64,000 bases of DNA, taken from IMG/VR virus record IMGVR_UViG_3300014204_000129, positions 47,444 to 111,443 of that record. One strand, written 5' to 3'. This DNA is from a virus. Its lineage: Duplodnaviria; Caudoviricetes. How positions within the stretch are numbered: position 1 is the first letter of the stretch; every line of letters starts with the position of its first letter. Under the pieces are notes generated by a model, which was given only the letters and a program-made list of their open reading frames with translations, was not told the DNA's origin and did not search any database. The translations under genes were made by a program, and so were the position numbers. This document shows positions 63,144 to 63,395 of this stretch, piece after piece.

Positions 63144-63271
63144 GCAGTGATAGTAGGGCTCGAACCTACAACCTCTCAATCCCAAATTGATAACCGTATT
63201 GCATTTGGCCATTACTGACAAGTGTTTGCCACGGATATTTTAGTGCTCTGCCAATTGAGCTATATCACTGC
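63144..63271 (-). ncRNA. Y-RNA-like tRNA mimic 1
   Basis: Acceptor stem, D arm TAGCTCAATTGGCAGAGC, T arm GTAGG-TTCGAGC-CCTAC; anticodon replaced by ATATCCGT/ACGGTTATC helix and CTTGTCA-GTAA-TGGCCAA bulged-C hairpin. Confidence 0.75.
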
Positions 63272-63274
63272 TAA

Positions 63275-63395
63275 ACAACGGTAGTAGGATTCGAACCTAC
63301 GGCAGACTAATCTGATAACCACACTACCACGACCACTACTGGTAAAAGATATGTATTGTGGTATTGGTTGCTCTACCACTGAGCTATACCGTTGT
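63275..63395 (-). ncRNA. Y-RNA-like tRNA mimic 2
   Basis: Acceptor stem, D arm TAGCTCAGTGGTAGAGC, T arm GTAGG-TTCGAAT-CCTAC; ATACCACA/TGTGGTTATC helix and TTACCA-GTAG-TGGTCG hairpin. Confidence 0.75.

What the first reader, a model, noticed from the sequence alone, without database searches (positions are those of the whole stretch)
63144..63395. Two Y-RNA-like RNAs with true tRNA topology, likely partners of the phage Ro60
Seen: two tandem minus-strand units with 9-bp terminal (acceptor) stems and canonical D and T arms, but about 70-75 nt between those arms. Both inserts share AAUA(U)CC../..GGUUAUCA helices with different but still pairing bases (CCGU/ACGG vs CCACA/UGUGG). Both have an apical hairpin with a bulged C (CUUGUCA-GUAA-UGGCCAA; UUACCA-GUAG-UGGUCG). 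Established: Ro60 binds a bulged-C helix formed by Y RNA 5' (GGUCCGA-like) and 3' (CUUGAC-like) strands. Bacterial and phage YrlA RNAs are circularly permuted tRNA mimics, open at the Ro stem and closed at the acceptor stem. Inference: here the permutation is reversed, so the Ro site is closed by a tetraloop and the acceptor end is free. These RNAs could therefore be RNase P/Z-processed, CCA-tailed by the phage enzyme and possibly aminoacylated while bound to Ro60. I cannot confirm that this topology is unreported.
Basis: partly seen in the sequence, partly recalled or inferred. Interest (0 to 1): 0.9.

Follow-up and report, generated by a model that had tools for sequence, protein, structure and literature searches.

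The report
tRNA-shaped Y RNAs of phage Ro60
Two neighbouring phage genes encode RNAs built like complete tRNAs in which the anticodon loop is replaced by the bulged hairpin that Y RNAs use to dock the RNA-surveillance protein Ro60. This un-rotated form of the known bacterial YrlA RNA is common beside Ro60 genes in phages and several bacterial phyla, and I found no published description of it.

Summary
Units A (63276-63393) and B (63145-63269), minus strand, lie in a phage tRNA array. Each has its own perfect 7-bp acceptor stem (9 bp with flanks), a D arm and a T arm. 69 and 75 nt take the place of the anticodon loop.

The insert is a long helix ending in a tetraloop-capped hairpin with a bulged C, followed by the conserved UUAUC. 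The phage encodes Ro60 (47731-49434) and a CCA-adding enzyme.

With a covariance model I collected 75 such units from 55 loci (phages, cyanobacteria, Myxococcota, Chloroflexia, Gemmatimonadota, Armatimonadota).
- All helices covary, and the bulged C is present in 74 of 75.
- The family consensus carries the published Ro60 motif GNCGAA..G.
- Where a Ro60 gene lies in the same locus, 46 of 46 units are on its strand, at a median distance of 322 nt.
- Encoded CCA follows the habit of the neighbouring tRNA genes.

The same module sits at the 5' end of permuted, YrlA-type elements in related phages.

Ro60 binding, RNA ends and charging remain untested. I file it as a new variant of a known kind.

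The scan has found this same class before on other DNA. I found no paper or Rfam family for it.

The parts
63276..63393 (-). Unit A, tRNA-topology Y-like RNA (118 nt to the discriminator G63276; two more flanking pairs reach 63275-63395)
   Evidence: Rfam tRNA 49.4 bits with a 53-nt insert; model R2 76.7 bits, above every ordinary tRNA of the window (at most 49.7)
63145..63269 (-). Unit B, tRNA-topology Y-like RNA (125 nt to the discriminator G63145; flanking pairs reach 63144-63271)
   Evidence: R2 77.8 bits; Rfam tRNA only 26.8 bits
63387..63393 (-). A acceptor 5' strand; pairs with 63277-63283
   Evidence: 7/7 Watson-Crick; acceptor helix 99.6% paired in the family, 7 of 7 pairs covary
63370..63384 (-). 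A D arm GCUC-AGUGGUA-GAGC
   Evidence: D stem nearly invariant in the family
63357..63362 (-). A helix H1, 5' strand (CCACA); pairs with UGUGG at 63319-63323
   Evidence: H1 95.9% paired, 5 of 5 pairs covary
63330..63344 (-). A apical Ro-type hairpin U-ACCA / GUAG / UGGU-C-G; unpaired C at 63331
   Evidence: helix 98.4% paired, C present in 74 of 75
63314..63318 (-). A conserved UUAUC
   Evidence: 71-75 of 75 per position; also present in permuted and minimal Y-like RNAs
63284..63300 (-). A T arm
63263..63269 (-). B acceptor 5' strand; pairs with 63146-63152
   Evidence: 7/7 Watson-Crick
63245..63260 (-). B D arm
63230..63235 (-). B helix H1, 5' strand (CCGUG); pairs with UACGG at 63194-63198
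   Evidence: in the free MFE
63206..63220 (-). B apical Ro-type hairpin U-GUCA / GUAA / UGGC-C-A; unpaired C at 63207. A63206 replaces the usual G and still pairs with U63220
   Evidence: the one U-A among 60 U-G at this pair
63189..63193 (-). B conserved UUAUC
63153..63169 (-). B T arm
47731..49434 (-). Ro60 gene (567 aa), the presumed protein partner
   Evidence: Pfam TROVE 1.1e-43, vWA_Ro60 5.5e-58
54826..56211 (-). CCA-adding enzyme with HD domain; would supply the CCA that no RNA gene of the array encodes
   Evidence: PolyA_pol 4e-19, HD 2e-9; 0 of 8 tRNAs and neither A nor B encode CCA
63784..63812 (-). Promoter-like site TTGACA-17-TATACT upstream of the RNA array
   Evidence: 11 of 12 matches; consensus match only

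Best explanation
A and B are Y RNAs in tRNA form. Each is a whole tRNA body (acceptor stem, D arm, T arm, short anticodon-stem remnant). Its anticodon loop has been replaced by an irregular helix (H1). The tip of H1 is the Ro60-docking helix of Y RNAs: 5'-YUU-helix, a small loop, helix-C(unpaired)-G/A. Inferred steps: they are transcribed with the tRNA array and cut out by host RNase P and 3' trimming enzymes like the tRNAs around them. They are given CCA by the phage enzyme and bound at the tip by phage Ro60. The tRNA-like body then points away from the ring as a handle for a tRNA-binding effector, as proposed for YrlA. They are the un-permuted counterpart of YrlA: chain ends at the acceptor stem, Ro stem closed by a loop. 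Shown here: the anatomy, its conservation and covariation, the genomic link to Ro60 and the CCA pattern. Inferred: binding, processing and function.
For: Anatomy. Family: model R2, built from 14 units, scores A and B at 77-78 bits against at most 63 for ordinary tRNAs. 75 units from 55 loci were aligned. Covariation: 94.2% paired against 68.7% shuffled (0 of 500) and at most 50.4% slid; acceptor, H1 and apical helix each have all pairs covarying. Ro signature: unpaired C in 74 of 75, the next G in 70 of 75, U-G across the bulge in 60 of 74. The consensus gGGc-C-G-a-a..G equals the GNCGAAN0-1G motif of Chen 2014. Link to Ro60: TROVE is present in 16 of 16 informative contigs against 1 of 8 controls. 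46 of 46 units are on the Ro60 strand, median 322 nt, maximum 1790 nt, although the search pattern held no protein information. In L227, G003 and G005 the units sit in Y-RNA clusters directly upstream of the Ro60 start. Same module in both topologies: GNCG..G(G/A)UUAUC occurs in 55 of 75 tRNA-topology units at mid-molecule and in 9 of 13 permuted units at the 5' end, against 3 of 502 tRNAs. A permuted element with GGUUAUC matches Rfam YrlA end to end at E 1.5e-5. Free CCA end: CCA is encoded in 20 of 75 (about 1 expected). It is present in 5 of 7 units in CCA-encoding arrays and in 0 of 11 in CCA-less arrays. In the 111-kb record the only T arms outside ordinary tRNAs are those of A and B, so no other tRNA-like Y RNA is available to this Ro60.
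Against: In this phage the units lie 13.7 kb from Ro60, unlike most relatives. A reads GUCGUGG and B reads GCCAAAUG, so neither matches GNCGAA exactly, and B lacks the G after the bulged C. The family fold of A is 10 kcal/mol above its MFE, and the apical helices are short and AU-rich. The alignments were fitted to the model, which favours its structure. Two modelled helices are weak (62-64% paired). The record is only 75% complete, so another Y RNA could lie in the missing part.
Confidence: 0.8

Rival explanations
1. They are working tRNA genes with an intervening sequence that is removed to give a decoding tRNA.
For: The Rfam tRNA model passes A at 49.4 bits with the insert placed in the anticodon loop. 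They sit in a tRNA array. Relatives keep a 5-bp anticodon stem (L012 CGAGU/ACUUG, L060 GCGGU/ACCGC).
Against: No conserved anticodon-loop signature flanks the insert (no U33 or purine 37 pattern). The insert is 53-60 nt, far too small for a group I intron, and no intron family matched. The most conserved letters of the whole RNA lie inside the insert (unpaired C 74 of 75, UUAUC). The units track Ro60 genes, not codon needs. No bacterial enzyme for such splicing is known (own knowledge).
Confidence: 0.04
2. They are tRNA look-alikes that work without Ro60, for example as decoys for host tRNA-targeting nucleases or as processing punctuation in the array.
For: In this phage they are 13.7 kb from Ro60 and embedded among tRNAs and other odd tRNA-like spacers. 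Phage tRNA arrays have been proposed as anti-defence devices (PMC12803027, abstract only).
Against: There is no anticodon loop for an anticodon nuclease to recognise. Same-strand proximity to Ro60 in 46 of 46 cases, and TROVE co-occurrence in 16 of 16 against 1 of 8, would be unexplained. The conserved tip equals the published Ro60 site.
Confidence: 0.07
3. The tRNA-topology transcript is only a precursor. The mature Ro60 partner is made by cutting the apical loop (giving a two-piece RNA with an open Ro stem), or the A-B dimer folds in the permuted register (T arm of A, acceptor hairpin from A 3' plus B 5', D arm of B).
For: The 3' acceptor strand of A can pair with the 5' acceptor strand of B in 8 of 9 positions, three of them G-U. 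The Rfam YrlA model gives weak hits across the junctions (22-23 bits). M. smegmatis YrlA is itself cut, at the acceptor loop, and lives as two pieces (PMC4201824). Tandem permuted units exist in L081, L087 and L183.
Against: The intramolecular acceptor stems are 9 of 9 Watson-Crick, against 8 of 9 with three wobbles. Apical loops are mostly 3-6 nt (median 4). Single, non-tandem units exist (L011, L019). The encoded CCA pattern points to use of each unit's own 3' end.
Confidence: 0.08

Closest known systems
YrlA (Y RNA-like A; Rfam RF02553; Salmonella Typhimurium, M. smegmatis, mycobacteriophages; Chen et al. 2014 PMC4201824; structure in 10.1101/312249)
   Same: Ro60-docking helix with a GNCG-type 5' strand. 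tRNA-like body with the same near-invariant D arm (UAGCUCA..GGUAGAGC) and T arm. Conserved UA after the long stem. Encoded beside Ro60 on the same strand in relatives.
   Different: The topology is circularly permuted. YrlA's 5' and 3' ends form the Ro stem and its acceptor stem is closed by a loop, with no free CCA end. Here the ends are at the acceptor stem and the Ro helix is closed by a loop. The Rfam model scores only 22-23 bits against a cut-off of 69.
Processed M. smegmatis YrlA (cut by RNase P, CCA added in vivo; PMC4201824)
   Same: A Ro60-bound Y RNA that ends in a 7-bp acceptor stem carrying CCA.
   Different: There it is a secondary cleavage of a permuted RNA and gives two base-paired pieces. 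Here one continuous chain is encoded in tRNA order.
D. radiodurans Yrn1 and metazoan Y RNAs
   Same: A bulged-C helix as the Ro60 site: G-U or A-U pairs beside an unpaired C, with YUU on the opposite strand.
   Different: Their Ro helix is formed by the chain termini. Their tRNA resemblance is partial (Yrn1) or absent.
Thermus phage phiLo Yrl1 and Yrl2 with phage Ro60 (PMC12135203)
   Same: Phage-encoded Ro60 with phage-encoded partner RNAs carrying a CGAA-type motif; binding and PNPase recruitment were shown there.
   Different: Stem-bulge-stem RNAs with paired termini and no tRNA body.
tmRNA and viral tRNA-like structures
   Same: A tRNA-like acceptor/T domain with a free CCA end, joined to a non-tRNA functional module.
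   Different: Those are aminoacylated and act on the ribosome. No evidence for that here (no G3-U70).

Membership tests
YrlA / bacterial Y RNA (RF02553) | Helix with an unpaired C next to a conserved 5' strand (GNCGAAN0-1G), the Ro60 site | tested here: met
   Family: unpaired C in 74 of 75, next G in 70 of 75, consensus gGGc-C-G-a-a..G. A has UGGU-C-G-UGG. B has UGGC-C-A-AAUG, where A replaces G and still pairs. The AA part of the motif is not kept in A.
YrlA / bacterial Y RNA (RF02553) | tRNA-like module with conserved D and T arm sequences | tested here: met
   D stem GCUC/GAGC in 68-74 of 74; T arm GG-UUCGA-CC invariant; A and B as read
YrlA / bacterial Y RNA (RF02553) | 5' and 3' ends pair to form the Ro60-binding stem; acceptor stem closed by a loop | tested here: not met
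   Ends are at the acceptor stem (7/7 pairs) and the Ro helix is closed by a 4-nt loop
YrlA / bacterial Y RNA (RF02553) | Reaches the Rfam gathering score (69 bits) | tested here: not met
   22.3 and 23.4 bits, and only across unit junctions; none in the whole record
YrlA / bacterial Y RNA (RF02553) | Encoded within about 4 kb of the Ro60 gene on the same strand (criterion of Chen 2014) | tested here: inconclusive
   A and B: same strand but 13.7 kb away. Relatives: 46 of 46 on the same strand, at most 1.8 kb away.
YrlA / bacterial Y RNA (RF02553) | Bound by Ro60/Rsr | not testable with these tools
   Needs pull-down or EMSA
tRNA (RF00005) | Cloverleaf reaching the gathering score | tested here: inconclusive
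   A 49.4 bits (passes, with a 53-nt insert); B 26.8 bits (fails the cut-off of 29); ARAGORN calls neither
tRNA (RF00005) | Seven-nt anticodon loop with U33 and an anticodon | tested here: not met
   Replaced by 53-60 nt; no conserved loop letters at the junctions
Intron-bearing bacterial tRNA (group I intron) | Self-splicing intron of about 200 nt or more in the anticodon loop | tested here: not met
   Insert too short; no intron family hit at E up to 10

The most novel reading that the evidence does not exclude
The tRNA-topology Y RNAs are not just handles. Once CCA-tailed, they would be recognised as tRNAs by a synthetase, EF-Tu, a tRNA-repair ligase or the ribosome. Ro60 would thereby be delivered to the translation or tRNA-repair machinery. 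For phages, this could rescue or clear tRNAs cut by host defence nucleases. In evolution they would be the ancestral form: a tRNA that gained a Ro60 hairpin, from which permuted YrlA arose by tandem duplication and trimming.
Probability: 0.15. Interest if true: 0.9.

Novelty: new variant of a known kind. Interest (0 to 1): 0.8.

Why it matters
Ro60 and Y RNAs are conserved from bacteria to humans, yet what the RNA's second module recruits is still unknown for the bacterial YrlA class. The reviews I could read state that every characterised Y RNA closes its Ro60 site with its own 5' and 3' ends.

A widespread class that instead keeps a free, tRNA-like, CCA-capable acceptor end changes which partners are plausible. 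These now include the CCA enzyme, RNase P and Z, synthetases, EF-Tu and RtcB.

It offers an explanation for why Chen et al. 2014 found few YrlA RNAs in cyanobacteria and delta-proteobacteria. These are the taxa where these units abound beside rsr.

It also gives a simple route from tRNA to Y RNA: insertion of the hairpin, then permutation through tandem copies.

For phage biology, it places Ro60 particles in the same toolkit as tRNA arrays and CCA repair enzymes.

For annotation, these genes are currently either missed or called tRNAs with odd inserts.

Tried and rejected
- blastn of the 2-kb RNA region against GenBank phages: no match.
- The search for related loci with the Ro60 protein in viral contigs: nothing confirmed.
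- Rfam YrlA cannot see these units. It only gives junction artefacts (T arm of one unit plus D arm of the next) and is weak even on permuted phage elements (at most 40 bits).
- First model R1 (two seeds) did not separate the class from ordinary tRNAs and was used only to align.
- Loose patterns (GTCG.. and ACCG..GGTTATC..GGTTC) returned mostly coding-sequence noise.
- My first by-eye call of L081 and L087 as tRNA-topology units was wrong. They are tandem permuted units whose junctions imitate the other register. I therefore re-checked A and B for that artefact.
- A modelled GCC/GGC helix and a single flanking pair are not supported (62-65% paired).
- Which reading holds between H1 and the T arm (5-bp anticodon stem or local variable-arm hairpin) stays open for A and B. 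A: ACCAA/UUAGU 4 of 5, against CAGA/UCUG. B: CUAAA/UUGAG 4 of 5, or CUAAA/UUUGG.
- Cultured Ro60 phages Sixama, GMA2, Catera and Phosso carry no tRNA-topology unit near the Ro gene, only permuted or minimal forms.
- Supplements of Chen 2014 and two reviews (PMC10870794, PMC6047535) are not held, so I could not check whether any drawing there shows this layout.
- G3-U70 (alanine identity) is absent, and I found no other argument for charging.

Full report
**What is in the window.**
The window is the last 64 kb of a 111,443-bp uncultured phage record, judged 75% complete. On the minus strand near its end lies an RNA array: tRNA-Tyr (63542-63629), tRNA-Val (63397-63471), then the two units of the finding, then further tRNAs and odd spacers.
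- Unit A (63276-63393) has acceptor AACGGUA/UACCGUU, U8-A9, D arm GCUC-AGUGGUA-GAGC, T arm GUAGG-UUCGAAU-CCUAC and discriminator G.
- Unit B (63145-63269) has acceptor AGUGAUA/UAUCACU and equally canonical D and T arms.
- 69 nt (A) and 75 nt (B) lie between D stem and T stem.
- The Rfam tRNA model aligns A end to end at 49.4 bits with a 53-nt insertion in the anticodon loop. B stays under the cut-off (26.8 bits), and ARAGORN calls neither.
- The phage encodes Ro60 at 47731-49434 (TROVE 1e-43, Ro60 vWA 5e-58) and a CCA-adding enzyme with an HD domain at 54826-56211, both on the same strand.
- No canonical YrlA is detectable in the whole record. The only T arms outside ordinary tRNAs are those of A and B.

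**Anatomy of the insert.**
After the D arm comes an A-rich linker, then the 5' strand of a helix I call H1 (A: CCACA; B: CCGUG). An internal loop follows, then YUU and the 5' strand of a short apical helix (ACCA; GUCA), a tetraloop (GUAG; GUAA) and the 3' strand (UGGU; UGGC). Next come an unpaired C, a G (A) or A (B) that pairs back across the bulge with the U before the helix, a spacer, the 3' strand of H1 ending in GG, and the sequence UUAUC. Between UUAUC and the T arm there is either the 3' half of a 5-bp anticodon stem or a small variable-arm hairpin. For A and B I cannot decide between these two.

**Relatives, and a trap.**
An exact-pattern scan of IMG/VR for GGTTATCA followed by the T arm gave the first relatives. 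Some had the same tRNA order: L011, L019, L012 (identical unit in L015) and L016. Others had the YrlA order: Ro strand, UUAUC, T arm, loop-closed acceptor hairpin, D arm, Ro strand (L014, L020, L023, L005, L083, L104, L103).

Tandem permuted units can be misread as un-permuted ones, because the junction between two units imitates the other register. I made that mistake for L081 and L087 and corrected it. A and B are not such a case. Each closes on its own acceptor strands with 9 Watson-Crick pairs, and its Ro helix is capped by 4 nt. The cross-unit pairing (A 3' strand with B 5' strand) is 8 of 9 with three wobbles.

**A model and the size of the class.**
A covariance model from L011 and L019 aligned 14 un-permuted units, and from that alignment I built model R2. 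R2 scores the un-permuted units at 60-117 bits (A 76.7, B 77.8) and ordinary tRNAs at no more than about 63 bits.

A second pattern (D arm, 55-85 nt, GGTTATC, T arm) was then scanned over viral contigs and over one genome per prokaryotic species. R2 found about 40 more units in 27 viral contigs. It found about 66 units in 43 bacterial loci:
- cyanobacteria (Nostoc, Chamaesiphon, Leptolyngbyaceae, Cyanothece, Pseudanabaena, Microseira);
- Myxococcota (Polyangiaceae, Kofleriaceae, Haliangiales);
- Chloroflexia;
- Gemmatimonadota, including Longimicrobium;
- Armatimonadota.

Rfam sees these only as tRNAs with a long insert.

**Structure support.**
On the 75 best units (55 loci), 94.2% of cells form standard pairs. 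Column shuffles give 68.7% (0 of 500 reach the observed value), and sliding the partners gives at most 50.4%.
- The acceptor stem is 99.6% paired, with compensatory changes in all 7 pairs. This settles the topology.
- H1 is 95.9% paired (5 of 5 pairs covary) and the apical helix 98.4% (5 of 5).
- The unpaired C is present in 74 of 75, the following G in 70 of 75, and each letter of UUAUC in 71-75 of 75.
- The pair across the bulge is U-G in 60, C-G in 9, G-C in 4 and U-A in 1; the U-A is unit B.
- The apical loop has a median of 4 nt.
- Two other modelled helices are not supported (62-64% paired).

The alignment was fitted to the model, so these figures lean towards it; the slide control partly answers that concern. 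ViennaRNA alone does not favour the family fold for A (-23.7 against -33.8 kcal/mol), though it does recover H1 and the apical hairpin of B.

**Why Ro60.**
1. The family consensus around the tip, cUU-gcCc-loop-gGGc-C-G-a-a..G, is the GNCGAAN0-1G motif that Chen et al. 2014 defined as the likely Rsr site and compared with the vertebrate GGUCCGA bulged helix (PMC4201824).
2. The same module, GNCG..G(G/A)UUAUC, sits at mid-molecule in 55 of 75 un-permuted units and at the 5' end in 9 of 13 permuted units. It occurs in only 3 of 502 tRNAs and 6 of 1500 shuffles. One permuted element with GGUUAUC matches Rfam YrlA over its full length at E 1.5e-5.
3. Co-occurrence. Every contig carrying such elements that is at least 57% complete, or has the element next to the gene, encodes a TROVE protein (16 of 16). 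The six without TROVE are fragments at most 26% complete. Control contigs where the pattern hit an ordinary tRNA have TROVE in 1 of 8.
4. Position. The scans used RNA patterns only. Even so, 36 of 47 new loci hold a Ro60 gene within the fetched 8-15 kb. All 46 units there are on its strand, at a median of 322 nt and a maximum of 1790 nt, with 35 upstream and 11 downstream.
5. Clusters. In L227 an array of a minimal Y RNA, two tRNA-topology units and a T-arm-only Y RNA runs straight into the Ro60 start codon. Complete phages G003 and G005 show the same kind of cluster.

In the present phage the units are 13.7 kb from Ro60, and nothing RNA-like fits in the 52-nt gap upstream of the gene.

**The free acceptor end.**
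CCA follows the discriminator in 20 of 75 units, where about one would be expected by chance.
- In arrays whose ordinary tRNA genes encode CCA (at least 80%), 5 of 7 units do so too.
- In arrays with at least five tRNAs and no encoded CCA, 0 of 11 units do.
- In the window, none of 8 tRNAs and neither A nor B encodes CCA, and the phage brings its own CCA enzyme.

So the units follow the 3'-end convention of real tRNA genes. That is what one expects if their acceptor end is matured and CCA-tailed. A precedent exists: M. smegmatis YrlA is cut by RNase P in its acceptor loop and receives CCA in vivo. I found nothing that argues for aminoacylation; G3-U70 is absent.

**Comparison with the literature.**

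Chen et al. [quoted passage not shown] These are the taxa where the un-permuted units are frequent. That suggests, but does not prove, that this class is what was missed.

The 2025 phage Ro60 paper describes stem-bulge-stem partners only. Full-text searches for YrlA, Ro60 with phage, cyanobacteria or tRNA arrays found no description. Two reviews and the 2014 supplements are not held, so a prior drawing cannot be excluded.

Earlier agents of this scan reached the same reading on other genomes. I looked at those notes after my own tests, and they are not independent evidence.

**Verdict.**
A and B are members of a large, uncatalogued, un-permuted branch of the YrlA-type Y RNAs. They fail the defining topology and the Rfam score of YrlA, so I do not file them as YrlA, but they most likely work like it. 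Novelty: a new variant of a known kind.

Noticed in passing
window 62412-62483 (-) and 63067-63139 (-): Rfam finds a good tRNA (57.3 bits, anticodon region CUGCAAU) at 62412-62483 that ARAGORN misses. ARAGORN calls a tRNA-His with anticodon ATG at 63067-63139 that does not reach the Rfam cut-off.
   Followed up: no
None carries GGUUAUC or a canonical T arm, so they are not of the class described here.
   Followed up: partly
window 63275-63283 with 63263-63271: The acceptor strands of A and B differ only by transitions. The 3' strand of A can therefore pair with the 5' strand of B (8 of 9, three G-U). This is the kind of tandem copy from which a permuted YrlA could arise.
   Followed up: partly
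L227:1323-1382(-), L227:995-1066(-); G003 61464, 61375, 61184, 60764 (-); G005 84973, 84760, 84686 (-): Minimal Y-like RNAs (closing stem, GNCGAAG, helix, UUAUC loop) without any tRNA body, or with a T arm only, are clustered with the tRNA-topology units just upstream of Ro60 genes. One Ro60 seems to be served by a small library of RNAs.
   Followed up: partly
L380 (Gordonia phage Sixama MN484601) about 22390-23140: Unannotated permuted and minimal Y-like elements (GGCCGAAG..GGUUAUC) lie between the annotated tRNAs just downstream of the Ro-like gene of this cultured phage.
   Followed up: partly
L578, L534 (Polyangiaceae MAG, Polyangium sp. 6x1): The bacterial rsr gene and its tRNA-topology Y RNAs sit in the middle of arrays of more than 24-30 tRNA genes within 8 kb. 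This looks like a mobile tRNA array unit carrying Ro60.
   Followed up: no
window 63784-63812 (-): A near-consensus sigma-70 type promoter (TTGACA, 17 nt, TG-TATACT; 11 of 12) lies upstream of the RNA array.
   Followed up: partly
L022 / G019 (control contig): A contig picked as a control (the pattern hit an ordinary tRNA) nevertheless encodes a weak TROVE match (445 aa, E 1e-10). Its RNAs were not examined.
   Followed up: no
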